From: a virus
Lineage: Duplodnaviria; Caudoviricetes
DNA: 48,532 nt
Virus record (IMG/VR): IMGVR_UViG_3300031860_000003
Coordinates: 1-48,532 of that record
Reading direction: 5' to 3' (one strand)
Within the stretch, counting starts at the first letter, position 1, and every line of letters begins with the position of its first letter. The position numbers were made by a program, and so were the translations under genes. Shown one piece after another: positions 32,264 through 43,368 of the stretch. The notes below the pieces were generated by a model. The model ran no database searches. It was given only the letters and a program-made list of their open reading frames with translations, and was not told where the DNA came from.

Positions 32264-32345
32264 GGGGTAATGGTCCCGCGCTAGTTTCCGTTACTGGGGT
32301 CAAGCACATTCCCCGGCGTGTCGCATTTCGCTTTACGCGAAACAG

Positions 32346-32421
32346 TAGCGCGGGTCGGATTCGAACCGACGATTGCTTGGTTATGAGCCAAGAGGGATAG
32401 GCCTGGCTTCCCTACCGCGCT
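32346..32421 (-). tRNA. tRNA-Met(CAT)
   Basis: Cloverleaf; anticodon loop CTCATAA. Confidence 0.9.
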
Positions 32422-32423
32422 CG

Positions 32424-32495
32424 CTGAGGTGCCTGGACTCGAACCAAGATCAACGGAGCCAGAGTCCGTTGTGCTGCCGTTTACACCACACCTCA
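32424..32495 (-). tRNA. tRNA-Gln(CTG)
   Basis: Cloverleaf; loop CTCTGGC. Confidence 0.9.
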
Positions 32496-32499
32496 TTCG

Positions 32500-32572
32500 C
32501 TGACCTGGGAGGAGTCGAACCTCCAACTACTGGATTAACAGTCCAGCGTTCTGCCAGTTGAACTACAGGCCA
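32500..32572 (-). tRNA. tRNA-Asn(GTT)
   Basis: Cloverleaf; loop CTGTTAA. Confidence 0.92.
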
Positions 32573-32576
32573 CCGG

Positions 32577-32649
32577 CGCCTCCTGCCGGGATCGAACCGG
32601 CGATCTCCTGGATGAGAGCCAGGTGAGATGACCGCTACTCCAAGGAGGC
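32577..32649 (-). tRNA. tRNA-Glu(CTC)
   Basis: Cloverleaf; loop CTCTCAT. Confidence 0.9.
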
Positions 32650-32650
32650 G

Positions 32651-32723
32651 TGATTCCGATCGGACTCGAACCGATGTCGTCCGGCTTGAAAGGCCGGCAG
32701 GCTAACCGCTACCCCACGGAACC
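32651..32723 (-). tRNA. tRNA-Glu(TTC)
   Basis: Cloverleaf; loop CTTTCAA. Confidence 0.9.
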
Positions 32724-32727
32724 GGGG

Positions 32728-32799
32728 TGCGCCCGGTCGGGCTCGAACCGACGTCTCAGGATTAAAAGTCGAGAGCTAAACCATCTCAGCTACGGGCGC
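32728..32799 (-). tRNA. tRNA-Lys(TTT), two anticodon-stem mismatches
   Basis: Loop CTTTTAA; stem CTCGA/TCCTG. Confidence 0.82.
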
Positions 32800-32841
32800 C
32801 TGATTGGGCATGCGTTCAGGCTCCGGTTTACGCTGTCGCAT
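32776..32841 (-). CDS. Candidate leader peptide MRQRKPEPERMPNQAPVAEMV
   Basis: GAAGGAG SD, TATACT -10 at 32876-32881; codons match the downstream tRNAs. Confidence 0.7.
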   Translation of the reverse strand: MRQRKPEPERMPNQAPVAEMV

Positions 32842-32907
32842 TTCAGGCTCCTTCCGTGCTCGGGATGTCGCGTTGAGTATAACCTCCCACCGCGCCACAC
32901 TGGCGCA

Positions 32908-33954
32908 ATGGACGCTCAATCCCCGCCGCCGCCGGCGATCCCCGCCGATGACGACGAGCTGCACCAGATGCTGGTCGCCAAATTCCGCAGCCGCACCATC
33001 AGCTCCTGGGCGCTCACCGCACCCGCCATCCCCAGCCTGATCGACGAGTACATCGACACATGCGACAAGATGCTCGTCCCGGTGTCCCGGCCCTGGGCGT
33101 CGTTGACCCGCGAGGACAAGCGCGACATGCTCGCGCCCACCATCCAGGAGGCATTCGACGCCTCCCCCCGGTCGCGCGTCACCCTCGACTGGGATTCCAA
33201 CACCGACGTCCTGCGTATCTCCGCGCGGGTCCAGAGCATCAGCGACAGCTACGACTCCTGGCTGGACGATCGCGGCTGGGCCCCGTTCGGCACCCACGCC
33301 GACGCGCGCGTGTGGCTGTTGGCCGAAGAACTCTCGGGGGGCCGGCGCGACATCCCCATCCTGGACATCGGCGCCGGCGTCGGCCGCAACGCGATCGCGC
33401 TGGCCCGGCACGGCTACCCGGTCGATGCGGTCGAGCTGGCCCCGCGGTTCGCCGCGCAGATCCGTGCCAACGCCGACTACCTGGAGCTGACCAACATCCG
33501 CGTCCTGGCCTGCGACGTGTTCGACACCGAGGACCTGCGCGACGACTATCAGCTGATCTTCGCCGCCGAGGTGGCCACCGACTGGCAGTTCGCCCAGTGC
33601 CGCAACCTGTTCGAGCTCGCCGCCAAGCGGTTGGCTCCCGGTGGCCTGCTGCTGTTCTCCGCGTTCATCGCGCGGCAGGGTTACACCCCCACCCAGGTGG
33701 CGCGCGAGCTCGGCCAGCACGCCCTGTGCCGCCCGTTCACCGCCGACGAGATGACCGAGGCGGCGGCGGGCCTGCCGCTCGAGCTGATCGCCGACGACTC
33801 GGTCTACGACTACGAGAAGGGGCACCTGCCCAAGGAGGCGTGGCCGCCTGCAATATGGTTCGAGGCTTGGGCCACCGGCAACAACCTGTTCGCCGGCGCG
33901 CCCGATGCGTCCCCGATGCAGCTGCGCTGGCTGGTCTACCGGCGCAACTACTGA
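32908..33954 (+). CDS. Class I SAM-dependent methyltransferase
   Basis: ILDIGAGVGRN motif I, VDAVEL and LAPGGLL; high GC3. Confidence 0.9.
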   Translation: MDAQSPPPPAIPADDDELHQMLVAKFRSRTISSWALTAPAIPSLIDEYIDTCDKMLVPVSRPWASLTREDKRDMLAPTIQEAFDASPRSRVTLDWDSNTDVLRISARVQSISDSYDSWLDDRGWAPFGTHADARVWLLAEELSGGRRDIPILDIGAGVGRNAIALARHGYPVDAVELAPRFAAQIRANADYLELTNIRVLACDVFDTEDLRDDYQLIFAAEVATDWQFAQCRNLFELAAKRLAPGGLLLFSAFIARQGYTPTQVARELGQHALCRPFTADEMTEAAAGLPLELIADDSVYDYEKGHLPKEAWPPAIWFEAWATGNNLFAGAPDASPMQLRWLVYRRNY

Positions 33955-33976
33955 GTGTCCACGGGGTGGACACCTG

Positions 33977-34046
33977 CTGCTCCGCCAGGATTCGAACCTG
34001 GACAACGAGAACCAAAATCTCGACGGCTGCCGGTTACCACGGAGCA
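33977..34046 (-). tRNA. tRNA-Gln(TTG), shortened D arm
   Basis: Loop TTTTGGT; intact T and acceptor arms. Confidence 0.8.
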
Positions 34047-34047
34047 G

Positions 34048-34117
34048 TGCCCCCGAGTGGAGTCGAACCACCGCAACCGAGTTTCGGAAACTCAGGGCCA
34101 GATCCGCTGGCGAAGGC
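34048..34117 (-). tRNA. tRNA-Arg(CCG), atypical D arm
   Basis: Loop TTCCGAA; D hairpin CCAG/CTGG directly abuts the acceptor stem. Confidence 0.7.
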
Positions 34118-34148
34118 TAATTGCGAATTCCGAAATTGGAAATTAGCG

Positions 34149-34222
34149 CCCCGCCGGAGGGATTCGAACCCCCATTTCATGGCTTAGAACACCACCGCTG
34201 ATCCAGATTCAGCTACGGCGGG
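34149..34222 (-). tRNA. tRNA-Arg(TCT)
   Basis: Cloverleaf; loop GTTCTAA. Confidence 0.82.
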
Positions 34223-34271
34223 CAGGCGAGACTGAGCGTTGTCGCCTTCGTCTCGCCTGCCGTCGCATCAT
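34209..34271 (-). CDS. Candidate leader peptide MMRRQARRRRQRSVSPARRS
   Basis: GGTGAGG SD; uses all six Arg codons and both Gln codons. Confidence 0.7.
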   Translation of the reverse strand: MMRRQARRRRQRSVSPARRS

Positions 34272-34350
34272 GACCTCACCTAACCGAACCAGACCACAGC
34301 CTGCCGTGCCCTATCATGCCCGACCTTGCCAGACCTATCCGGACCGGACC
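34271..34350 (-). repeat. GGY-NN pentamer array 2 (13 of 16 units perfect)
   Basis: Minus strand GGTCC GGTCC GGATA GGTCT GGCAA GGTCG GGCAT GATAG GGCAC GGCAG GCTGT GGTCT GGTTC GGTTA GGTGA GGTCA. Confidence 0.88.
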
Positions 34351-34371
34351 ATACGGCATCACATCACTGCG

Positions 34372-34444
34372 TGCCCTCACGAGGAATCGAACCCCGGGCC
34401 TCCTGGTCCGTAGCCAGGCGCTCTCTCCGCTGAGCTATGAAGGC
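34372..34444 (-). tRNA. tRNA-Arg(ACG)
   Basis: Cloverleaf; loop CTACGGA. Confidence 0.9.
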
Positions 34445-34445
34445 G

Positions 34446-34519
34446 TTCCTGCTCCTGGGATCGAACCAGGGTCCTTCTCCTTATCAGGGAGCTGCCCCTA
34501 CCAACTGGGCCAAGCAGGA
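34446..34519 (-). tRNA. tRNA-Ile(GAT)
   Basis: Cloverleaf; loop CTGATAA. Confidence 0.88.
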
Positions 34520-34520
34520 C

Positions 34521-34595
34521 TGGCGACCCATACGGGGAACGATCCCGCGACCTCCGGCTTGACGGGCCGGCGCTCTACCACTGAGCTAATGAGCC
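34521..34595 (-). tRNA. tRNA-Asp(GTC), encoded CCA
   Basis: Loop CCGTCAA; T loop ATCGTTC. Confidence 0.85.
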
Positions 34596-34671
34596 AGGTG
34601 GGCAACTCCCCTCCGACGAGAGGGGCGGCAGTTACCAGATCCGTAGCTGGGTTCGCCGATGGTAGTTACCC
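34596..34671 (-). ncRNA. Unknown structured RNA, copy A
   Basis: Fills the Gly-Asp spacer; homologous to 35673-35769. Confidence 0.55.
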
Positions 34672-34672
34672 G

Positions 34673-34745
34673 AGCACCCGACGGGCTACGATCCCGCGGC
34701 CTCCACGTTGGCAACGTGGCGCTCTGCCTGCTGAGCTACGAGTGC
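34673..34745 (-). tRNA. tRNA-Gly(GCC)
   Basis: Loop TTGCCAA; T loop ATCGTAG. Confidence 0.88.
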
Positions 34746-34774
34746 CTGCGCTTCGCTGATTCAGTTATTGTACG

Positions 34775-34850
34775 AGCCGCAGACAGGAATCGAACCTGCG
34801 CTCTGCTTGCTTACAAGGCAAGTGCTACAGCCAACATGAGCTACTGCGGC
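34775..34850 (-). tRNA. tRNA-Thr(TGT)
   Basis: Cloverleaf; loop CTTGTAA. Confidence 0.88.
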
Positions 34851-34853
34851 CTG

Positions 34854-34926
34854 TGCGCTCGGCAGGGATCGAACCTGCGGCCTGAAGATTAAGAGTCAAC
34901 AGCTCTACCGACTGAGCTACGAGCGC
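34854..34926 (-). tRNA. tRNA-Lys(CTT), two anticodon-stem mismatches
   Basis: Loop CTCTTAA; stem GTTGA/TCTTC. Confidence 0.85.
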
Positions 34927-34985
34927 GGATCAACCGGGGCGGTCGTCGGCTTTCGCCGCCCCTGTGTGCGCGTTCGTCGCATCAT
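34917..34985 (-). CDS. Candidate leader peptide MMRRTRTQGRRKPTTAPVDPRS
   Basis: AAG plus four Thr codons directly upstream of tRNA-Lys(CTT) and tRNA-Thr(TGT). Confidence 0.6.
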   Translation of the reverse strand: MMRRTRTQGRRKPTTAPVDPRS

Positions 34986-34986
34986 G

Positions 34987-35058
34987 TGTCCCGAGCAGGT
35001 ATCGAACCTGCGGCCTCCACCGTGTCGGGGTGGCGCTCTCCCGCTGAGCTACCAGGAC
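34987..35058 (-). tRNA. tRNA-Val(GAC)
   Basis: Cloverleaf; loop CCGACAC. Confidence 0.87.
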
Positions 35059-35139
35059 GGGGCCCAGGCTTTTGATGACGGTGAACCTGAGCCCGAAACA
35101 CCGGACGGTCAAGTCTCGTGGCGCCACGGCTTGACCCAG

Positions 35140-35211
35140 TGTCCCGTCGTGGTATCGAACCACGGGCCTCCTGCGTGTGAAACAGGCGCTCTCCCGCTGA
35201 GCTAACAGGAC
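35140..35211 (-). tRNA. tRNA-Val(CAC)
   Basis: Cloverleaf; loop TTCACAC. Confidence 0.88.
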
Positions 35212-35212
35212 G

Positions 35213-35285
35213 TGCCAAGACGTGGAATCGAACCACGGCCTCCGGCTTTTCAGACCGGCGCTGCTACCAACTGAGCTATCGAGGC
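35213..35285 (-). tRNA. tRNA-Phe(GAA)
   Basis: Loop CTGAAAA; two acceptor-stem mismatches. Confidence 0.83.
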
Positions 35286-35286
35286 G

Positions 35287-35360
35287 TGGACCAGGGCGGA
35301 TTCGAACCGTCATCCGTCTCCTTGCAAGGGAGCTGCTCTGCCAATTGGAGCTACAAGCCC
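35287..35360 (-). tRNA. tRNA-Ala(TGC)
   Basis: Loop CTTGCAA; G3:U70 identity pair. Confidence 0.88.
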
Positions 35361-35450
35361 GTATGAAGTTGGGTCCGGTCCTTCGCGTCTTTCGTTCCGG
35401 CTACCCCCACCGAGGTCTGACCTCGCGCTGGTGGACGAGGGGCGCTAGCG

Positions 35451-35521
35451 AGCGGATGACCGGAATCGAACCGGTGTCGGCAGCTCGGAGGGCTGCTGCG
35501 CGGCCACTACGCCACACCCGC
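35451..35521 (-). tRNA. tRNA-Gly(TCC)
   Basis: Loop CCTCCGA; U73. Confidence 0.85.
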
Positions 35522-35596
35522 TGGGGTAACCGACCGGAATCGAACCGGCGTCCTCGGGGCCACATCCCGATGCTCTGCCATTGAGCTACGACTACC
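35522..35596 (-). tRNA. tRNA-His(GTG), G-1:C73 and encoded CCA
   Basis: Cloverleaf; loop ATGTGGC. Confidence 0.9.
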
Positions 35597-35597
35597 G

Positions 35598-35669
35598 AGC
35601 GCCCGGCGTGGGTCGAACACGCTTAAGCGGGTTTGCAGCCCGCCACCTGATCCGTTCGGTCACAGGCGC
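35598..35669 (-). tRNA. tRNA-Cys(GCA)
   Basis: Loop CTGCAAA; U73. Confidence 0.88.
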
Positions 35670-35672
35670 TTT

Positions 35673-35769
35673 GGTGGTGGCGCTCCCCTCCGGCGAGAGG
35701 GGCGACACGCTCCCCGAGTGGGGAGCTCATACCGGAACCGTAGCCGGATTGGCCGTTGGTAGCGTCACC
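35673..35769 (-). ncRNA. Unknown structured RNA, copy B
   Basis: Homologous to 34596-34671 with an extra hairpin; starts 7 nt after TGGACC-N17-TACCGT. Confidence 0.55.
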
Positions 35770-35816
35770 GTGTACCACGGTAAACCCTGCCGCCGACAAG
35801 GTCCATCCATTTTCCG

Positions 35817-35897
35817 TACCGGCAGCAGGAGTCGAACCTGCACAGCTCACGCCACGGATTTACAGTCCGCTTCCCTCGCCACATGGGATGCGCCGGC
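35817..35897 (-). tRNA. tRNA-Tyr(GTA)
   Basis: Loop CTGTAAA; extended variable arm. Confidence 0.88.
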
Positions 35898-35898
35898 G

Positions 35899-35969
35899 CA
35901 CGCTCCCCAGGAATCGAACCCAGACCAAGAGGTTTGGAAGCTCTTGTGCTACCACTACACCAGGAGCGC
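35899..35969 (-). tRNA. tRNA-Trp(CCA)
   Basis: Loop TTCCAAA; G73. Confidence 0.85.
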
Positions 35970-35973
35970 CTCG

Positions 35974-36047
35974 TCGGGGAGGCAGGATTCGAACCTGCGA
36001 TGTCTTGATCCCAAATCAAGTGGGCTGCCTGGCTGCCCTACACCCCG
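35974..36047 (-). tRNA. tRNA-Pro(TGG)
   Basis: Loop TTTGGGA; C1-G72, A73. Confidence 0.9.
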
Positions 36048-36080
36048 GTTTGGTCCCGGCGTGTGTCCACGACCGGGCGG

Positions 36081-36116
36081 CTAGCGCCAGGGATACGGTC
36101 GTGGGGCGAAGAACAT
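36081..36116 (-). CDS. Candidate leader peptide MFFAPRPYPWR
   Basis: TATGAT 7 nt before the ATG (leaderless spacing); Pro/Tyr/Trp codons upstream of tRNA-Pro, -Trp and -Tyr. Confidence 0.72.
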   Translation of the reverse strand: MFFAPRPYPWR

Positions 36117-36132
36117 GGTGATCATCATAGCG

Positions 36133-36204
36133 TGCGCTTCCAGGGATTCGAACCCTGACTGGGCCGGGTTTAAGCCAGCTGCCTCTGCGTTGGGCTAGAA
36201 GCGC
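36133..36204 (-). tRNA. tRNA-Leu(TAA), short variable loop
   Basis: Cloverleaf; loop CTTAAAC. Confidence 0.85.
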
Positions 36205-36205
36205 G

Positions 36206-36278
36206 TACACCCTCTGGGATTCGAACCCAGACTTGACCGGGTTTGAGCCGGATGCCTCTCCCGTTGGGCTAAGGGTGC
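36206..36278 (-). tRNA. tRNA-Leu(CAA), short variable loop
   Basis: Cloverleaf; loop CTCAAAC. Confidence 0.85.
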
Positions 36279-36284
36279 TTGCCG

Positions 36285-36358
36285 TACTCCCGGTGCGATT
36301 CGAACGCACACTGTCTGGTTCCTGAGACCAGTGCTTCTGCCAGTTGAGCGACGGGAGC
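36285..36358 (-). tRNA. tRNA-Leu(CAG), short variable loop
   Basis: Cloverleaf; loop CTCAGGA. Confidence 0.85.
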
Positions 36359-36387
36359 AGGTTTCTTGTTTCTTTGTTTCGTAAAAG

Positions 36388-36476
36388 CGGAGGGCGGAGG
36401 TCATGCTCCCCGAGCGCCATCACGCGCTACCCGGTATTCGACGCCGGTCGCAGGCTATCCCGCTGCTTCACCCTCC
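36388..36476 (-). tRNA. tRNA-Ser(CGA), atypical T arm
   Basis: Loop GTCGAAT; long variable arm AGCGC/GCGCT; T arm lacks TTC. Confidence 0.7.
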
Positions 36477-36477
36477 G

Positions 36478-36562
36478 AGGAGGGCTACGGGATTGAACCG
36501 TAAGCGGTGAGGCTTGCTCGGGTTAGCAACCCGGCTCCGGCGACCAACCGGAAAAGCCCTCC
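36478..36562 (-). tRNA. tRNA-Ser(GCT)
   Basis: Loop TTGCTAA; long variable arm. Confidence 0.82.
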
Positions 36563-36566
36563 AGAC

Positions 36567-36614
36567 TTAGCTAAGTCGTAAGGGACTAGATGACAGCAAT
36601 CGGTGGTCGCGCAC
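36567..36614 (-). CDS. Candidate leader peptide MRDHRLLSSSPLRLS
   Basis: TACACT 7 nt before the GTG; 8 Leu/Ser codons upstream of the Ser/Leu tRNAs. Confidence 0.75.
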   Translation of the reverse strand: MRDHRLLSSSPLRLS

Positions 36615-36631
36615 GTCAAGCAGTGTAGCAG

Positions 36632-36699
36632 TGCCGCACAAGGGATTTGAACCCTTCCCGTTCGCTTGGTTAGGGCTCACGGTCTGCCGTCGGTGCGGC
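36632..36699 (-). ncRNA. tRNA-like element or pseudo-tRNA
   Basis: Perfect 7-bp acceptor and AAGGG-TTCAAAT-CCCTT T arm; no canonical anticodon arm. Confidence 0.5.
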
Positions 36700-36776
36700 T
36701 TTCCAGCGGTGCTCCATAAACGTCAGCATCAGATACCAGCGCAGGGCCCGCCAGCGCATGGCCCACCACTCGGACA

Positions 36777-36929: not shown

Positions 36930-37009
36930 AGGCGCCCGCTTTTCTGCAGGGCCGCCACCAGGAAGTACAGCAGGATCAAGCCGCCGATCACCCCGACCAG
37001 TGTGTTCAC
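36926..37009 (-). CDS. 27-aa single-TM peptide
   Basis: MNTLVGVIGGLILLYFLVAALQKSGRL; overlaps both neighbours by GTGA. Confidence 0.5.
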   Translation of the reverse strand: MNTLVGVIGGLILLYFLVAALQKSGRL

Positions 37010-37458
37010 GTCTCTCCGTTCACCTGTTTGCGCTGCGCGCGGTAGGCCGACAGCTCGTCCAGCACGTCGCCGTCGTCGAGCTCGGCGTCGCTCATCGGCG
37101 GGGTCGGGCCGGCGCTGATCCGCTCGTCGACCATGTCGTAAATCTTGGCCTGGTCGGCCATCAGCCGCCGCGCCACCTCGATCGCCTTGAGGTCGTTGTT
37201 GTCGACGTGGCTCATCGCCTTCTTGACCAGGTGCTCCATCCGGGCCATATAGATCGTCATGGCGTTGGCGTTGCGCAGGATGTGGTCGGCGGCGCAGCGC
37301 TCCAGCTCGGCCTTGATGATCTGGTTGACCCGGGCGTCAGTCAGATTGACCTGCGCGTTGGCACCGATCGTCTTCTGGCTGTGCCCGGCCACGAACAGGT
37401 CCAGGATCAGCGCGTCCCGCTGCTGGCGTTCCTTGCGGGTCAGCGCCCGACCGGTCAT
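37006..37458 (-). CDS. Probable terminase small subunit (N-terminal HTH, helical)
   Basis: RDALILDLFVAGHSQKTIG HTH; DLKAIEVARRL; DELSAYRAQR-type C terminus. Confidence 0.6.
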   Translation of the reverse strand: MTGRALTRKERQQRDALILDLFVAGHSQKTIGANAQVNLTDARVNQIIKAELERCAADHILRNANAMTIYMARMEHLVKKAMSHVDNNDLKAIEVARRLMADQAKIYDMVDERISAGPTPPMSDAELDDGDVLDELSAYRAQRKQVNGET

Positions 37459-38231
37459 GGTTTGTATCTTCCCGCCAGAGCGTGGTTCAGGTCGGGATCG
37501 CCGAGGTTGGGCGTGTCGCCCAGCGGGTCGGTGCCGACCCGCTCCTTGATGATCTCCCGCATCAGCCAGGCCCGGCCGCGGGCGACCCGGTAGCGCGACA
37601 TCAGCGCTTCGTTGCGGCCGTAGTCGCGGTCCCAGCCCGGGCTGTCGGCCTTGGCGCCGGTGTACCCGCCGGCCGCGGCGCTGTTGTGCTCGAAGGCGTA
37701 GATGTTGCCCGGCGTTCGGCGCAGCGTGGACAGGGTTTCCACCACGAAGGTGAACGCGGTGTCCTCGTGCCCCCAGCCGATGAACGCGGGGTCCTGCCCG
37801 CCCAGGCGCCAGTATTCGGCGGTGGTGGTGACCAGGCAGCCGCCCACCCCGGCCGCGCCGTCGCCGCCCCACTCATACAGCGTGGGCAGCTCGGCGAGCC
37901 TGCGGAACGGGACCTCGACGTACTCGGGCGCCAGGATGCGGTAGCGGGTGAACGGCCAGCACACCCCGACCGGGTCGGCGACGGCGGCCTTGACGTTGGC
38001 GATGTCGGGCACGGTGTCGGCGTCGCAGATCACCACCACGTCGGTCTTCGCCTGGGCCACCGCGTTGTTGCGGGCCTGGCTCAAGCTGAAGATATCGCCG
38101 TCGGAGTCGGCGGTGATCACCGGCCAGCCGGTTTTCCACCAGAGCTCGAGCACCCGGTTGTAGGCGGCCATCCGCGAGGGGCTGGGCCGCCACGGGATGC
38201 ACACCGTGGCCGGCGCCCTACGGCGGCTCAC
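37455..38231 (-). CDS. GT-A glycosyltransferase (GT2/GT7-like)
   Basis: VCIPWR, SQARNNA, DAD motif and GGQDPAFIGWGHED. Confidence 0.88.
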   Translation of the reverse strand: MSRRRAPATVCIPWRPSPSRMAAYNRVLELWWKTGWPVITADSDGDIFSLSQARNNAVAQAKTDVVVICDADTVPDIANVKAAVADPVGVCWPFTRYRILAPEYVEVPFRRLAELPTLYEWGGDGAAGVGGCLVTTTAEYWRLGGQDPAFIGWGHEDTAFTFVVETLSTLRRTPGNIYAFEHNSAAAGGYTGAKADSPGWDRDYGRNEALMSRYRVARGRAWLMREIIKERVGTDPLGDTPNLGDPDLNHALAGRYKP

Positions 38232-38470
38232 ACCTTCACCTTGCCGCAGTGCACGCAGTTCGGGGAGGCTGACACGTACTCGCAGGCGCACATGTTGTCG
38301 GGATCCTCGCCGTGATAGCCGGGGCAGCCGCACGGCCGCCACGAGGTGTACTGGCCGGTCTCAAAGTTCCAGCCGGACAGGATGCGGACCCGGCATTTAC
38401 CGTCGCCATCGAGGTTGTGCTGCTTGGCCAAATGCGGGCATTCCGTACACTTCGGGCTCACCCTCCTCAT
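38228..38470 (-). CDS. Small Cys/His-rich protein
   Basis: CxxCxH...C, CGC and CxxC motifs. Confidence 0.55.
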   Translation of the reverse strand: MRRVSPKCTECPHLAKQHNLDGDGKCRVRILSGWNFETGQYTSWRPCGCPGYHGEDPDNMCACEYVSASPNCVHCGKVKV

Positions 38471-38582
38471 TGTCGGCGTCCTCCGCTGATTCGCCGGGAT
38501 GCCGGGGCCGTGTCATCACCACGATCAGCACCATGTTGAACACGCACACGCACACCAGGGCCAGAAACGTCGCGAACAGCAT
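38397..38582 (-). CDS. Small membrane protein
   Basis: N-terminal hydrophobic helix and acidic tail. Confidence 0.5.
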   Translation of the reverse strand: MLFATFLALVCVCVFNMVLIVVMTRPRHPGESAEDADNEEGEPEVYGMPAFGQAAQPRWRR

Positions 38583-38680
38583 GGGTATCTACAAGTACCA
38601 GACGGACTTGAATTCCGTGTTACGGCAAGCTAATCGGGCCATAACCCGAGCCGCCACACGTCATCGTCGCGAACTCCTCG

Positions 38681-39334
38681 TCAGGGCTCATCGTGGACGT
38701 ATTTCCAGTGCCCGTTGCCGGCGGCGGCGCGCCACACCGACTTCACGGCCGGCACGTCCACCAGCCGGAACCCGGCCGCCATCAGCGCGAAGCACTCGTG
38801 GATGTCGGCGCCCCAGTGCGCGAACTCGCCGTCCGGGTAGGGGAACGCGCGCAGCACGTCGCGGCGGGCGGCGAACACCCCGCCCTGGACGTGGATTTGC
38901 GGCAGGTCGGCCGGGAAGCCGTGGCTCTGCGGCGGCCCGGCGGCCTGCAGGCAGCCGGTCATCGCGACGGTGCGGGTCTGGTCGTCGACGATCGGCGCCA
39001 GCAGGTCGACCGCCCAGGACGGGTCGCGGGCGAAGCCGTGATTGGTGCACACGTACAGCAGGTACGGGCGGGTGGCGAGCTTGACCGCGAGGTTCATCGC
39101 CGGCCCGTAGAGCAGGTTGTTGCCCAGCTGCCATTGGTACCGGGTGCGCTGGATACCCTCAGCCTCCGCGGTGATGAGCGCGTCGGCGAGGCGCTGGCTG
39201 GTGGTGTCGGAGTTGTCGATGACGATCAGCTCGGAGTCCAGCGGCGTCAGCGCGGGCAGCAGGTCGCGGTTCAGCCGCTCCAGGGCCCGGTCCTCGTTGT
39301 TGTGGGCGATCATGATCGCCGTCACCGGGATCAC
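38681..39334 (-). CDS. GT2-like glycosyltransferase
   Basis: ELIVIDNS, NLLYGPAMNLA, GGVFAARRDV and WGAD motifs; DxD position degenerate. Confidence 0.72.
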   Translation of the reverse strand: MIPVTAIMIAHNNEDRALERLNRDLLPALTPLDSELIVIDNSDTTSQRLADALITAEAEGIQRTRYQWQLGNNLLYGPAMNLAVKLATRPYLLYVCTNHGFARDPSWAVDLLAPIVDDQTRTVAMTGCLQAAGPPQSHGFPADLPQIHVQGGVFAARRDVLRAFPYPDGEFAHWGADIHECFALMAAGFRLVDVPAVKSVWRAAAGNGHWKYVHDEP

Positions 39335-39588
39335 GCGAGCCTCCAGTAGCCCACGATCTTCGCCGTACCACCCTCGCTGGGGTCGAAGATGTCGTGGATC
39401 ACGCCGTCGACGACCGCGCTGGGATGGCCGTCGGCGCGCAGCACGATCAGGGAATGCGCGGCAGGCAGGTTCTCCTGGACGAAGTCGACCGCGAACGGGA
39501 ACTGGACATACGGCCAGCCGCCCTCCCGTGCGATCTCGCGCAGCCGCCCGAGCGATCCGTCCTGCGCGCAGGTGCAGACGTGCGTCAT
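39331..39588 (-). CDS. Hypothetical protein
   Basis: Coupled ORF; GHPSAVVDGVIHDIFD. Confidence 0.55.
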   Translation of the reverse strand: MTHVCTCAQDGSLGRLREIAREGGWPYVQFPFAVDFVQENLPAAHSLIVLRADGHPSAVVDGVIHDIFDPSEGGTAKIVGYWRLA

Positions 39589-39794
39589 CAGTGCCCCTCT
39601 CCGCTGGCGAGGCGCTGCAGCGCGGTCGCGGCGATCATCGCCAGCATGATGATCCGTTGCGGGTGATCCAGGGCCAGCATCGAGATCATGATCTGGGAGG
39701 TCGGTTGCGGGGCGGTGCGCAACGCCTTGATGAATTGGTCCACGATGTCGTCGGCGGCGGCCCACTGGACGGGGTCATCAGCGTGGTGGTTCAT
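39588..39794 (-). CDS. Hypothetical protein
   Basis: ATGA-coupled ORF. Confidence 0.55.
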   Translation of the reverse strand: MNHHADDPVQWAAADDIVDQFIKALRTAPQPTSQIMISMLALDHPQRIIMLAMIAATALQRLASGEGH

Positions 39795-40294
39795 TTGACG
39801 GCCAGCGCGTAGATGTCGCCGGCGTTGGACTCGTCGGCGAACCAGAAGTGGAACGGCTCCAGCCACTTTCGCAGATCGTCGCGGGTGACGTTGCGGTAGA
39901 ACTCGCCGTCGCGGATCGGTCCGCCGTCCACCGCGGAGTGCGGTGCCCGCCCTTCTCCGGCGGTGGTCATCAAAAACACTCCGCCCGGACCCAGCATCGC
40001 GTGCGCGTTGTGGCAGATCGCCTCGGCCTCGTCGGTGTGTTCCAGGGTTTCGCAGCAGACCACCGTGTCGGCCATCGGCCCGTGCCAGGTCGCCGCGTTG
40101 CCGACGCGGTCCACGTTGGGGCCGGGCACGATGTCGACACCGACGTAGTGACGGGCGTCGGTGAACAGCGGGCGCACCGGCCCCGAGTACGGCCAGTCCC
40201 CGGCCACGGTGCGACTGCCCAGCTCAACCACCCACTTGCGGGGCTCCAGCCGTTCCAGCATCGAGAAGATGAACTTGTACGCGCCCTCATGCAT
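39791..40294 (-). CDS. Class I SAM-dependent methyltransferase
   Basis: VVELGSR, YVGVDIVPGPNVD, CCETLEH and LGPGG. Confidence 0.85.
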   Translation of the reverse strand: MHEGAYKFIFSMLERLEPRKWVVELGSRTVAGDWPYSGPVRPLFTDARHYVGVDIVPGPNVDRVGNAATWHGPMADTVVCCETLEHTDEAEAICHNAHAMLGPGGVFLMTTAGEGRAPHSAVDGGPIRDGEFYRNVTRDDLRKWLEPFHFWFADESNAGDIYALAVK

Positions 40295-40360
40295 CAAATC
40301 TCCCGATCTAGATCGTTGTGGCTCCATAGGCGACGGGCGCGGATAGACGCCAGGTGGCAC

Positions 40361-41026
40361 CTAAGCTCCTCTCGACCAACCTGGGCAGTAGCCCAGGATC
40401 ACGTTGCCGGTGTCCCAGTTGGTGCGGGTGCCCACCTTCCACGCCTTGCGCTCGGTGCGCTGCTGCATCGGCCACGGCCCGTCGATCGGCACCCCGTCGG
40501 CGTGGTCGACCAGCGAGGGCACCGTGTAGCAGATGCCGACGTTCCAGCTCTGCGCCCAGCGGGTGATCCGCAGCGGCAGCTCCTCACCCCGCTGGGTGAT
40601 GTCGTCGAGCATCGGGGTGACCATGCGGATGCGGATCGCGTAGGCCACCGACCCGATCAGGCAGTCCCCGAGGATCCACGCCTTGCGCTCGGACTCGGCG
40701 GTACGCACCGCGTCGGCGGCCGCCTGCTGGGTCTCCTGTGAGGGGTGGCCGTAGCCCAGGTAGAGCCCGACAATCGGCGCCGGCGCGTGCGCCAGCGCCC
40801 GTTTGAGCTGGGTGCGGAAGTCGCGCACCGGCCACGCGTCGTCCTCGAGCACCACGCACCAGTCGGTGTGCCGGTAGGCCAGGGCCTTGAGCACGGCGAT
40901 GTGGTTGCCCTCGCGGCCCAGGGTGCCGTCGTCGACGTTCATCGCGATCGCCCCGACGTCGTTGCGCAGTGCCCGCGCGGTCGGGGCCCGCGAGGTGTGC
41001 GCGACCACGCCGACCGCGATGGTCAC
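40361..41026 (-). CDS. Actinophage glycosyltransferase (GT25-like)
   Basis: IAVGVVAH, WCVVLEDDA, LYLG and PSLVDHAD motifs. Confidence 0.8.
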   Translation of the reverse strand: MTIAVGVVAHTSRAPTARALRNDVGAIAMNVDDGTLGREGNHIAVLKALAYRHTDWCVVLEDDAWPVRDFRTQLKRALAHAPAPIVGLYLGYGHPSQETQQAAADAVRTAESERKAWILGDCLIGSVAYAIRIRMVTPMLDDITQRGEELPLRITRWAQSWNVGICYTVPSLVDHADGVPIDGPWPMQQRTERKAWKVGTRTNWDTGNVILGYCPGWSRGA

Positions 41027-41050
41027 GGCTTCACGACGAAGTAGGGCAAG

Positions 41051-41266
41051 TCATCGGCCCGCCCGGGGCCGGACCTTGAACCCCAGCGCGGTGCGCGCCG
41101 GGAACGTGTCCACCCGCAGCTGATCCAGGCCGGGCCGGAACTCCACGTCGGTCGCGATCACCCACTCGTCCATGTTCTCCTCCGTGTTGTAGCCCTTGTG
41201 CTCCAGCTCGCAGGGCACCTCGGTGCCATCCGGGCGCACGATCCGCACCCCCTCCGGTCTACCCAT
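41051..41266 (-). CDS. Hypothetical protein
   Basis: Coupled ORF, high GC3. Confidence 0.55.
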   Translation of the reverse strand: MGRPEGVRIVRPDGTEVPCELEHKGYNTEENMDEWVIATDVEFRPGLDQLRVDTFPARTALGFKVRPRAGR

Positions 41267-41474
41267 CGCCGATCACCTCGGTCAGCAGCTCGTCCAGCAC
41301 CGCGAACACGCCCCCCAGCAGAACCCACATCGCTCGCGGCCGTTCATTCGCCGGAGGACCCCACGGCTCCGATGCGCGGGCAAGCTCGCCGGTCTCCCGC
41401 AGATTCCGCCGAAGCTGAGCGATCCGCTCCTTGTCGACCATCACCAGCTTTTCGTCCTCAGCCATCACGCTCAC
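41259..41474 (-). CDS. Hypothetical protein
   Basis: Coupled ORF. Confidence 0.5.
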   Translation of the reverse strand: MSVMAEDEKLVMVDKERIAQLRRNLRETGELARASEPWGPPANERPRAMWVLLGGVFAVLDELLTEVIGDG

Positions 41475-42573
41475 CCAGCATCTCGTTCAGGACCGCATCG
41501 AGGATGGCGCCGTGCACCCGCAGCAGCCGCCCGATCGTCTCCTGGCTGTTGTCGATTCCGGCGGCCGCCAGGATCTCCCGGTGTTCGTCGCGCAGGCCGC
41601 GCAGCAGCTCGTTGCGGCCGATCGGGCGCCCCTGCATCCGCGCCGCCTTGTCGGATTTACCCAGGCCGCCCTTCTCCACGTCGGCGGCCCAGCGGGCGAT
41701 GGTGTCGTGAAACGAGAACACCCCTCCCGCTTCACCTTTGGCGTCCAACTCACCCTGACAGTCAACGCAGACAGTGGCGACGGTGTCATCGGCGCGGTGC
41801 ACCCGATAGGTGGAGGCGTGCGCGCAGTTCGGGTCGGGCTCGTTGAACACGTCGACCGGTTTCCAGCCGCCCCACTGGGCACACTCGGCCACGTCCAGAT
41901 CGGCGATCGCCGGCGCCGGGATCAGCTCGAACAGCGCCAGCTCGTGCGGCGCCATCAGCACGCCGGCGTCGGCGGCCGGCTCGTGGATCGCCTCGATCCG
42001 GGTCGGCAGGTTGAACGGCGGGGCCTCCATGTCCAGGGCGCGTTCCATGTAGCCGCGCCACGCTAGCCCTTCCGGCTCGTAGTCCTCGTTGGACCCGTCC
42101 TCCCAGTGGCTGGTCAGCAGGTAGCGCGCGCCGCAGGCTCGCATCTTGTCGAGCACCTTGGTGATCTCGTCGTTGGGGAAGTGGATCAGGACGTGGCGCG
42201 CCAGGATGCAGTCCACAGGCGGCATCACCTCGCAGGTGAGCAGGCTGGTTGCGGCGAACTGGATGTGGGGGTTGCCGTAGTTGTCGGTATTGGCCTCGAT
42301 GAAGCTTGGCTCGACATCCCAGCCCATATAGAGATCCAGCCCGGACAGGTCGACCTTGCTCATCCAGTTCCAGTCGCCACAGCCCACGTCCAGCACCGTC
42401 TTGATCCCGTACCGCTTGAAAATCTCGGGCAGGATCTCCCGTAGGTTCTCGGTCTGCGCGAGCGTGGCACCTGGACCGTTGGCAGTCTCGGTGTTACCGA
42501 ACTCGTCGGGCCGCGATTTATGCAGCTCAACGATCTCACTCCATGCTTTGACATTGTCGTCGGCAAAGCTCAT
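41458..42573 (-). CDS. Class I SAM-dependent methyltransferase with C-terminal extension
   Basis: GPGATL, VLDVGCGDWNW, YMGWDV and RHVLIHF; about 150 extra residues with CxxC. Confidence 0.85.
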   Translation of the reverse strand: MSFADDNVKAWSEIVELHKSRPDEFGNTETANGPGATLAQTENLREILPEIFKRYGIKTVLDVGCGDWNWMSKVDLSGLDLYMGWDVEPSFIEANTDNYGNPHIQFAATSLLTCEVMPPVDCILARHVLIHFPNDEITKVLDKMRACGARYLLTSHWEDGSNEDYEPEGLAWRGYMERALDMEAPPFNLPTRIEAIHEPAADAGVLMAPHELALFELIPAPAIADLDVAECAQWGGWKPVDVFNEPDPNCAHASTYRVHRADDTVATVCVDCQGELDAKGEAGGVFSFHDTIARWAADVEKGGLGKSDKAARMQGRPIGRNELLRGLRDEHREILAAAGIDNSQETIGRLLRVHGAILDAVLNEMLGERDG

Positions 42574-43088
42574 GATGCGCGCTCCCTCGATCGCCTAGCT
42601 CGATCTTTCGCGCAAGTGACACAGTCGCGTCGGGTACGCCCATTCGCCATGACTTCCACGTAGGTGTTCTCTGGCGTGAAGGCATGTCCGTTCTTGCAGT
42701 GCGTCTTGCGGGCGTTGTTGTGGCTGCCGTTGGCAACCATGTCATTTGTGTTATCGGGTCGATTGCCCCAGTAAAGATTCTCGGCCCGGTTGTTCAGTGG
42801 ATCGTCATCCCGATGCAGGCCGAAGGGGCGTTCATCTGGGCGCGGGCCCTCGAACGCTTCAAGGATCAGCAGATGTACCTTCGTCGGGCCACGCGGCGGA
42901 ATGTTGACGAACGGATAGAGTCGCCCCTTCCGGTCGGCCAAAGAGAATTTTAATATCCGGCCGCGAGAAAATCTCTGGCGTCCATCCTTCCGGTCGATCT
43001 GCCTATCGAGGCTGCGTATCCGGCCTAGCGATGACGCTTGGTAGCCGGGGCAACTAGGGATGTCGCGCCATTCTTCCGCGAAACTCAT
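42570..43088 (-). CDS. NUMOD4-HNH homing endonuclease
   Basis: EEWRDIP..GYQASSLGRIRS; LHRDDDPLNNRAENL; KTHCKNGHAFTPENT; lower GC. Confidence 0.92.
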   Translation of the reverse strand: MSFAEEWRDIPSCPGYQASSLGRIRSLDRQIDRKDGRQRFSRGRILKFSLADRKGRLYPFVNIPPRGPTKVHLLILEAFEGPRPDERPFGLHRDDDPLNNRAENLYWGNRPDNTNDMVANGSHNNARKTHCKNGHAFTPENTYVEVMANGRTRRDCVTCAKDRARRSRERAS

Positions 43089-43186
43089 GTCCACTCCCAG
43101 GTGATCGTCAGGGTCTTGCCGAACAGCGGTCCGAATATCCAGCCCCGCTTGCGCCGGGCCGCCCAGTTGAAACTGCTGTAGATCAT
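43085..43186 (-). CDS. Hypothetical protein (33 aa)
   Basis: ATGA overlaps at both ends. Confidence 0.45.
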   Translation of the reverse strand: MIYSSFNWAARRKRGWIFGPLFGKTLTITWEWT

Positions 43187-43368
43187 GCGATCCCTTCCTC
43201 GTGGTGTTTGTTGACGAAATCCTCGACGTCGTCGATGCACTGCCGGTAGCCCTGCCACCATGCCTTCTGCCGGGAGTGGTCCTGCTTCGGCGACTCGCTT
43301 TCACGGTGGTCGATGGTGCGCAGCGCGCCCTCGGCCAGCTTGCGCAGCCTGCCCAGCTGCTCGGTCAT
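43183..43368 (-). CDS. Hypothetical protein
   Basis: ATGA-coupled ORF. Confidence 0.55.
   Translation of the reverse strand: MTEQLGRLRKLAEGALRTIDHRESESPKQDHSRQKAWWQGYRQCIDDVEDFVNKHHEEGIA

What the first reader, a model, noticed from the sequence alone, without database searches (positions are those of the whole stretch)
36040..36129. Pro/Tyr/Trp leader MFFAPRPYPWR with alternative helices
TATGAT-N7-ATG TTC TTC GCC CCA CGA CCG TAT CCC TGG CGC TAG, directly upstream of tRNA-Pro, -Trp and -Tyr. CCACGACCG pairs with downstream CGGTCGTGG (9 bp). TCCCTGGCG can instead pair with CGCCGGGA, and that same segment (CACGCCGG) can pair with CCGGGGTG at the tRNA-Pro 5' end. This is an attenuator-like set of competing helices.
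Basis: partly seen in the sequence, partly recalled or inferred. Interest (0 to 1): 0.82.

Follow-up and report, generated by a model that had tools for sequence, protein, structure and literature searches.

The report
Ribosome-sensing leaders gate phage tRNAs
In this likely mycobacterial phage, a tiny reading frame written in the codons of the proline, tryptophan and tyrosine tRNA genes right behind it is kept in cultured mycobacteriophages, and is predicted to let the first of those tRNAs fold only while a ribosome lingers on it, which would let the phage make tRNAs on demand.

Summary
The mini-ORF MFFAPRPYPWR* (36116-36081, minus strand) follows TATGAT-N7, a leaderless-start signature found only 6 times on the 48.5-kb strand. 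Like leaders with in-frame Pro, Trp and Tyr head Pro/Trp/Tyr tRNA blocks in 12 other loci, including Sparky, cluster C1 and Myrna-like mycobacteriophages; seven other arrays have none. Four more codon-matched mini-ORFs head other tRNA blocks in the window (18 of 19 tRNAs have their codon in their own leader; best of 120 pairings; leaders chosen after seeing codons). Masked folding predicts tRNA-Pro blocked with no ribosome or one at the stop, and free with one on codons 2-10 (0 of 150 shuffles match). No U-tract terminator follows. The likely mechanism is stalling-gated tRNA folding and RNase P maturation, perhaps with Rho. Against: no expression data; Tyr (Sparky) and Trp/Tyr (cluster C1) fall outside the predicted free zone; control of tRNA-Trp and -Tyr is unexplained. 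This scan noted codon-matched leaders before on other DNA, mostly with terminators; I found none in print.

The parts
36124..36129 (-). -10 box TATGAT (TANNNT), 7 nt before the ATG; likely promoter of a leaderless transcript
   Evidence: TANNNT-N6/7-RTG in all 13 Pro/Trp/Tyr leaders examined; only 6 such sites on the strand
36081..36116 (-). Mini-ORF MFFAPRPYPWR* with Pro CCA/CCG/CCC, Tyr TAT, Trp TGG; CGA precedes CCG
   Evidence: in-frame P, W, Y in all 13 leaders examined
36067..36104 (-). Helix A (36104-36096 with 36075-36067), 9 bp, predicted when no ribosome is bound
   Evidence: 8 bp in L003/L004
36054..36093 (-). Helix B (36093-36085 with 36061-36054); not the predicted switch in the window, a like helix is the freeing one in cluster C1 and L143
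36055..36077 (-). Helix D (36077-36068 with 36063-36055), predicted freeing helix; starts 10 nt after the last Trp codon here and in the Sparky clade
   Evidence: the window/L003 differences within this helix fall in its loop or opposite its bulge
36040..36064 (-). Helix C (36064-36056 with 36048-36040): leader captures the 5' acceptor strand of tRNA-Pro; no U-tract follows
35973..36047 (-). tRNA-Pro(TGG), with a U6.U67 mismatch in the acceptor stem
35898..35969 (-). tRNA-Trp(CCA)
35816..35897 (-). tRNA-Tyr(GTA)
36567..36614 (-). Sister leader VRDHRLLSSSPLRLS* after TACACT-N7, before tRNA-Ser(GCT), Ser(CGA), Leu(CAG), Leu(CAA), Leu(TAA)
   Evidence: homologs in L004, L143, Rizal, Myrna, Sparky
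34917..34985 (-). Sister leader MMRRTRTQGRRKPTT..., starts at the 3' end of tRNA-Val, stops inside tRNA-Lys(CTT); before Lys(CTT), Thr(TGT). Picked by eye: no -10 or SD by my rule
   Evidence: kept in L003, L004
34209..34271 (-). Sister leader MMRRQARRRRQR... (AGA, AGG, CGG, CAA), stops inside tRNA-Arg(TCT); before Arg(TCT), Arg(CCG), Gln(TTG)
   Evidence: kept in L004, L005
32776..32841 (-). Sister leader MRQRKPEPERMPNQ... with SD, stops inside tRNA-Lys(TTT); before Lys(TTT), Glu(TTC), Glu(CTC), Asn, Gln(CTG), Met
   Evidence: kept in L003, L004, L005

Best explanation
The element is a mini-ORF in Pro, Tyr and Trp codons, likely translated from a leaderless transcript, whose RNA is predicted to act as a ribosome-position switch on the folding of the tRNA-Pro behind it. 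Shown: the ORF, the -10 spacing, the four helices, their conservation and the codon match. Inferred: a host 70S ribosome loads at the 5' AUG. With no ribosome, helix A forms and helix C holds the tRNA-Pro 5' strand (OFF). A ribosome that lingers on codons up to Trp10 breaks A, so D forms; this leaves 7 unpaired leader nucleotides and an intact acceptor stem for RNase P (ON). A ribosome that reaches the stop breaks D and C re-forms (OFF). Dwell time would be longest when tRNA-Pro, -Tyr or -Trp is scarce, so the phage would supply these tRNAs when host tRNAs are depleted. How the OFF state reaches tRNA-Trp and tRNA-Tyr is not shown; Rho termination or decay of the misfolded precursor is the likeliest link.
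For: (1) 13 of 13 Pro/Trp/Tyr-block leaders examined have TANNNT-N6/7-RTG and in-frame P, W, Y (window, L003, L004, Sparky, L142, L161, L143, Rizal, Koguma, Tonenili, Myrna, Phabba, ScoobyDoobyDoo; about four lineages). The frame survives a swapped 5' part (Rizal vs Koguma) and a 3-nt indel (Myrna vs Phabba). In the 11 checked, neither other frame holds P, W and Y. (2) The leader is nearly identical in window, L003 and L004 while tRNA-Pro itself differs strongly. (3) Five leaders in the window: 18 of 19 block tRNAs have a cognate codon in their own leader (16 exact), best of 120 pairings under all four scorings; Lys AAG/AAA and Gln CAG/CAA sort with their isoacceptors. (4) Sparky, with no tRNA-Leu in the stretch read, has 1 Leu in its Ser leader against 4-5 in window, Rizal and Myrna. 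(5) CGA is 10 of 70 leader codons against 7 per 1000 in genes, and 9 of 10 are followed by a block amino acid (8 of 5000 shuffles). (6) 14 of 26 leaders pair with their own tRNA 5' end in the top 10% of 218 ends, against 4 of 80 control spacers ranked among 61 ends. (7) Masked folding, window: acceptor probability 0.00 with no ribosome, 0.69-0.79 on codons 2-10, 0.00-0.01 on codon 11 or stop; amplitude 4.1 kcal/mol, 0 of 150 shuffles. In Sparky, L142 and L161 the free zone sits on P-W-P-W. (8) Precedents, passages read: leaderless sORF attenuators in mycobacteria (10.1101/834739); a leader hairpin controls RNase P cleavage in engineered switches (PMC8925977).
Against: No transcript, ribosome or cleavage data. 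The five window leaders were chosen after seeing their codons: of 9 starts passing my rule, 4 were matched and 5 were not, and the Lys/Thr leader was added by eye. Homologs are related, so counts are not independent. The window switch responds to a ribosome anywhere on codons 2-10, not to P/Y/W as such, and with a +6 footprint the stop state is barely blocked (1.0 kcal/mol). The best shuffle reached 4.06 against 4.14 observed. L003/L004 stay 96-100% blocked in every state with the whole tRNA; the cost drops to 0.6 only at Trp10 and is 4.8-5.4 at Pro7, Tyr8, Pro9. Tyr13 in the Sparky clade and Trp/Tyr in Rizal, Koguma and L143 lie in the predicted blocked zone; a queued second ribosome, an extra assumption, only partly mends this. 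Myrna-like leaders do not pair with their first tRNA (ranks 106-148 of about 218), Rizal/Koguma weakly (56-64), and the window's Ser/Leu and Lys/Glu leaders rank 78 and 55. For four of the five window leaders the acceptor stem costs under 1 kcal/mol even without a ribosome. I saw no two-sided compensatory pair in helices A or D. L161 shows no tRNA-Tyr yet keeps the Tyr codon.
Confidence: 0.55

Rival explanations
1. Same codon sensor, but the output is transcription termination (Rho-dependent, or a pause at helix C), not RNase P access; pairing with tRNA-Pro only supplies a pause hairpin or exposes a Rho site.
For: It would control all three tRNAs at once. Most mycobacterial transcripts end by Rho and uORF-gated Rho attenuation is known (PMC12360218, passages). 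Myrna-like leaders keep a CACCC/GGGTG hairpin that does not involve the tRNA, followed by TTTT in Myrna.
Against: No U-tract after helix C in six homologs, and none in the tool's terminator scan at this site. The Myrna U-run is absent in Phabba and ScoobyDoobyDoo. The leader gives Rho under 70 nt, mostly paired or ribosome-covered. It is compatible with the best explanation as a second step.
Confidence: 0.27
2. The mini-ORFs are translated and selected for these codons but act in trans or on the ribosome, for example as minigenes that trap host tRNAs as peptidyl-tRNA; the helices are secondary.
For: Codon conservation alone fits. A cluster C1 array carries an annotated peptidyl-tRNA hydrolase (Tonenili). 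Lambda bar minigenes are the model (recalled, not checked).
Against: Does not explain why each ORF sits in cis before its matching block or pairs with that tRNA's 5' end. The ORFs are 11-25 codons, longer than typical toxic minigenes (recalled).
Confidence: 0.08
3. The spacer is a structured non-coding RNA (pseudoknot A+B, HDV/theta-like ribozyme, or CCA-ended tRNA-like hairpin) and the ORF is incidental.
For: A,B,A',B' order with a small nested hairpin resembles HDV topology; helix B is followed by ACCA; the array holds other tRNA-like RNAs.
Against: No Rfam match over the spacer at E<=10 or over five homolog leaders at E<=1. ACCA is ATCA in L003/L004. Structures differ between lineages while frame and P/W/Y persist. 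The loop does not fit the HDV L3 consensus (recalled).
Confidence: 0.05
4. Chance ORF and chance helices in a GC-rich spacer.
For: Short ORFs and 8-9 bp helices are common at 65% GC; a 9+9 bp pattern gave 49 of 50 unrelated hits. Single-leader P values are modest (0.015-0.11).
Against: Conservation across four lineages, five matched leaders in one array, rarity of the start signature, and no such leaders in seven other arrays.
Confidence: 0.03

Closest known systems
Mycobacterial leaderless sORF attenuators (polycysteine Ms5788A; Canestrari et al., 10.1101/834739, passages read)
   Same: Leaderless start, short ORF in sensed codons, stalled ribosome breaks a sequestering helix, no terminator needed.
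   Different: There the hidden element is a Shine-Dalgarno of a metabolic gene; here it is the 5' acceptor strand of a tRNA, the sensed codons are several and isoacceptor-matched, and the locus is a phage.
Classical ribosome-mediated transcription attenuators (trpL, hisL; multivalent thrL, ilvL) (trp/his described; thr/ilv recalled)
   Same: Leader peptide in codons tied to the downstream product; three-state helix logic (A, D, C as 1:2, 2:3, 3:4).
   Different: No intrinsic terminator; the downstream genes are tRNAs; single codons, often after CGA, rather than runs.
Synthetic RNase P riboswitches (Ender et al. 2021, as described in PMC8925977, passages read)
   Same: A leader hairpin blocks tRNA 5' maturation; ON exposes about 7 single-stranded leader nucleotides.
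   Different: Engineered, theophylline-driven, and masks the leader only; here natural, ribosome-driven by prediction, and invades the acceptor stem.
uORF-gated Rho-dependent attenuation (tnaC, tufB, mgtCBR; PMC12360218, passages read)
   Same: Ribosome position on a short ORF decides expression without a U-tract terminator.
   Different: No Rho site was shown here; targets are tRNA genes.

Membership tests
Classical leader-peptide transcription attenuator | Short ORF with codons tied to the downstream genes | tested here: met
Classical leader-peptide transcription attenuator | Mutually exclusive helices set by ribosome position | tested here: inconclusive
   Predicted for window and, for P/W, the Sparky clade; not for W/Y in cluster C1 and L143; no probing
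Classical leader-peptide transcription attenuator | Intrinsic terminator (hairpin plus U-tract) as output | tested here: not met
Mycobacterial leaderless sORF attenuator | -10 box with RTG at the expected start, no SD | tested here: met
   13 of 13; C at -1 in 12 of 13, as preferred in PMC4633059. Sequence signature only; start not mapped
Mycobacterial leaderless sORF attenuator | Ribosome occupancy and response to amino-acid or tRNA limitation | not testable with these tools
   needs ribosome profiling and reporters
Mycobacterial leaderless sORF attenuator | Sequesters the SD of a downstream protein gene | tested here: not met
   downstream genes are tRNAs; the captured strand is tRNA nt -1 to 8
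Rho-dependent uORF attenuator | Rho-dependent 3' ends gated by the uORF | not testable with these tools
   no RNA data
HDV-like/theta ribozyme | Covariance-model match or conserved nested pseudoknot with catalytic loop | tested here: not met
   no Rfam hit; fold not kept across homologs; loop consensus recalled
tRNA or tRNA-like RNA | Cloverleaf or acceptor stem with a conserved CCA end | tested here: not met
   no ARAGORN or Rfam call; ACCA changes to ATCA in L003/L004

The most novel reading that the evidence does not exclude
Mycobacteriophage tRNA arrays are banks of isoacceptor-specific sensors: each block has a mini-ORF that test-reads the codons of its own tRNAs, and a stalled ribosome decides whether the next tRNA folds and is cut by RNase P. 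This would be a natural ribosome-gated tRNA maturation switch that lets a phage detect which host tRNAs have been depleted and replace just those.
Probability: 0.4. Interest if true: 0.9.

Novelty: new variant of a known kind. Interest (0 to 1): 0.76.

Why it matters
Why phages carry tRNAs has been open for decades; one current answer is that they replace host tRNAs cut by defence nucleases (PMC10264068, passages). A leader that reads the codons of its own tRNA block would mean the phage monitors tRNA supply and responds block by block. It would also add tRNA folding as a new output for attenuation. The element is unannotated in the records I opened of cultured phages of M. smegmatis (Sparky, Rizal, Koguma, Tonenili, Myrna, Phabba); 129 phage records carry at least 80% of the Rizal leader, so it can be tested at the bench directly.

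Tried and rejected
Rfam: nothing on the spacer or homolog leaders. BLAST of the spacer: no phage match, only weak chance plasmid matches; the distant homologs came from synteny with tRNA-Pro. Helix-A pattern scan: 49 of 50 hits unrelated. Core 18-mer: 3 of 8 viral and 1 of 48 metagenome hits were the element. Terminase search in genome contigs: none. Trp-codon-plus-tRNA-Pro pattern: 4 of 5 viral and 1 of 24 genome hits were leaders; this pattern fixes TGGCG, so L142, L143 and L161 are biased towards Trp, though not towards frame or start. Rizal leader pattern in viral contigs: 0. Folding the whole Pro-Trp-Tyr precursor to test a domino effect was uninformative: tRNA-Trp was almost never folded in any state. 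Sequencing runs for L145: no RNA holder listed; no reads laid. MAFFT alignments did not put helix C in register across lineages, so I made no formal covariation count. Ribozyme, tRNA-like and pseudoknot readings rejected as above. No matched leader in Wildcat, Bongo, LeBron, Sixama, Wakanda (only 4 kb read), pCBMA213_1 or the Arthrobacter plasmid, nor by my rule in WXIN. Literature: eight searches, top 12-25 listings each; none described leader ORFs controlling phage tRNA genes. Subscription papers and bioRxiv supplements were not searchable.

Full report
Setting. The window is a phage contig with head, tail and terminase genes on the minus strand. Its terminase is 48-49% identical to those of Mycobacterium phages Hilltopfarm, Typha and Bipper, so a mycobacterial host is likely but inferred. 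ARAGORN tRNAs at 32345-36562; two more, Ser(CGA) and Arg(CCG), I read from spacer folds. The finding is the 84-nt spacer between tRNA-Leu(TAA) and tRNA-Pro(TGG).

Observation. TATGAT, 7 nt, then MFFAPRPYPWR* at 36116-36081 are as described, as are helices A, B and C. A and B do not share nucleotides. A fourth helix, D (36077-36068/36063-36055, -16.8 kcal/mol), overlaps both A and C. No U-tract follows C. TANNNT-N6/7-RTG occurs 6 times on the strand; two of these head tRNA blocks with matched codons, one lies in a tRNA-like spacer, three are elsewhere. In mycobacteria an RTG at the transcript start behind a -10 box marks leaderless translation (PMC4633059, passages).

Conservation. Two related viral contigs, L003 and L004, keep the leader almost unchanged although unrelated DNA lies upstream and tRNA-Pro has diverged. 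Looking upstream of tRNA-Pro in annotated phages gave distant versions: Sparky MTSARRRPWPWRYTAEG*, Rizal MFEIRPPEPRWRYQPSLGR*, Koguma and Tonenili VFKSSGIGRPESPRWRYQPSLGR*, and Myrna, Phabba and ScoobyDoobyDoo with YRPWH. A pattern scan added L142, L143 and a Mycolicibacterium locus, L161; that pattern is biased towards a Trp-like word. All 13 have the leaderless signature and in-frame Pro, Trp and Tyr. They fall into about four lineages, so they are not 13 independent cases, and single-leader P values run from 0.015 to 0.11. The same rule found no matched leader in seven other arrays.

A system. The rule-based scan passed 9 starts in the window's array; 4 were codon-matched and 5 were not. 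I added a fifth, before Lys/Thr, by eye. For these five, 18 of 19 block tRNAs have a cognate codon in their own leader, and the true pairing is the best of 120 whether scored exactly or with wobble, by block or by next three tRNAs. Lys AAG goes with Lys(CTT) and AAA with Lys(TTT). Many of the codons are rare in this phage (TTA 0.1, AGA 1.2, AAA 3.4 per 1000). CGA is 20-fold enriched and usually precedes a sensed codon: 9 of 10 in the window, 26 of 32 over 15 related leaders; that it slows decoding is my inference. Sparky's Ser leader has one Leu where phages with tRNA-Leu in the block have 4-5, and L143, with one tRNA-Leu, has two. Eleven of the 28 called tRNAs (Cys to Val, Gly to Arg-ACG) have no leader that I could find.

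Mechanism. Fourteen of 26 leaders pair with the 5' end of their own first tRNA in the top tenth of 218 tRNA ends, against 4 of 80 control spacers (controls ranked among 61 ends). With ribosome masks, the window's tRNA-Pro acceptor stem has probability 0.00 without a ribosome, 0.69-0.79 with the A site on codons 2-10, and 0.00-0.01 on codon 11 or the stop; none of 150 shuffled leaders gave as large a switch, though one came close. Helix D begins 10 nt after the last Trp codon in both the window and Sparky clades, and in the latter the free zone is P-W-P-W. In the ON fold the last 7 leader nucleotides are unpaired, the feature that engineered RNase P switches use (PMC8925977, passages). Three sister ORFs stop inside their first tRNA, so a ribosome that runs on would unfold it while one stalled upstream would not; this agrees with stall = ON. 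Translation, stalling, switching and RNase P gating are all inferred.

What does not fit. L003/L004 remain blocked in all states by probability, with a cost minimum only at Trp10. Tyr in the Sparky clade and Trp/Tyr in cluster C1 and L143 fall in the blocked zone; a queued ribosome helps only partly. Myrna-like leaders do not touch their first tRNA and keep a separate hairpin, which favours a termination reading there. For the other four window leaders the acceptor stem wins at equilibrium even without a ribosome, so any block would be kinetic. Control of tRNA-Trp and tRNA-Tyr is unexplained (one search was uninformative). The result depends on the footprint assumed. No RNA data bear on it.

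Known systems. It works like the mycobacterial leaderless sORF attenuators (10.1101/834739, passages) and shares the three-state logic of trp/his leaders, but it fails membership of both: no terminator, no downstream SD. Rho-gated uORF control is common in mycobacteria (PMC12360218, passages; 10.1101/2022.06.01.494293, listing only) and is the main rival or a second step. The eLife study of cluster C1 tRNAs has no occurrence of 'leader' or 'attenuat' in its main text (PMC10264068). Eight library searches found no account of such leaders; subscription papers and preprint supplements were out of reach.

Earlier scan notes. After I had formed this reading, the look-up showed that this scan noted codon-matched leaders at phage tRNA arrays on other DNA, mostly with terminators; one check stands and one is in doubt. 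One note describes hairpins on the first tRNA's acceptor strand. I did not test their DNA and do not count them as support.

Verdict. The codon-matched leader is real and conserved (about 0.85 that it is a translated sensor). The tRNA-folding output is the likeliest mechanism (0.55). It is a new variant of ribosome-mediated attenuation, present in cultured phages and directly testable. Interest 0.76.

Noticed in passing
window 35670-35770 and 34596-34671 (-): Two related tRNA-like RNAs not called by ARAGORN or Rfam: closing stem, a CUACGG-loop arm and a shared CCCCUCUCG-N-CGGAGGGGA hairpin, ending ACCA and ACCU; fold z -3.1 and -2.6.
   Followed up: partly
window 36630-36700 (-): tRNA-like RNA with a CUA loop, called tRNA-Pyl only at relaxed threshold; z -3.7. 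Cluster C arrays carry a CTA 'Sup/Pyl' tRNA too.
   Followed up: partly
window 36388-36476 and 34047-34118 (-): Uncalled tRNA-Ser(CGA) with an atypical T loop and tRNA-Arg(CCG) with a reduced D arm; the latter is kept in L003-L005 and, in similar form, Rizal.
   Followed up: partly
window 34985; L004 6208; L005 314; L003 7432: Several leaders begin with ATG right at the 3' end of the previous tRNA, so tRNA 3' processing might create a leaderless mRNA.
   Followed up: no
L003 4555-5258; L004 3898-4440: An insertion with an opposite-strand ORF after tRNA-Leu(TAA); in L003 the tRNA 3' end is duplicated, as at an integration site.
   Followed up: no
window 34773-34746 and 35815-35770 (-): TACAAT and TGGACC...TACCGT promoter-like sites ahead of the Gly and Cys blocks, which lack leaders and may be constitutive.
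   Followed up: no
window 32900-33970: An insertion of about 1.1 kb between tRNA-Gln and tRNA-Lys holding a plus-strand ORF (33060-34187) that looks methyltransferase-like by eye; absent in L003-L005.
   Followed up: no
window 34320-34275 (-): Run of short GGNNN-like repeats upstream of the Arg/Gln leader, absent in L004 and L005.
   Followed up: no
window 37006-43304 (-): Upstream of the array: an RNase E-like ORF, two glycosyltransferases, two methyltransferases and an HNH endonuclease (PHROGs).
   Followed up: no
L173 6136-6397 (ScoobyDoobyDoo): tRNA order is Trp-Pro-Tyr, yet the same YRPWH leader heads the block.
   Followed up: partly
L161 after tRNA-Trp: tRNA-Tyr appears truncated while the leader keeps its Tyr codon.
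   Followed up: partly
L004 5103-5174: tRNA-Ala anticodon is CGC where the window and L003 have TGC.
   Followed up: no
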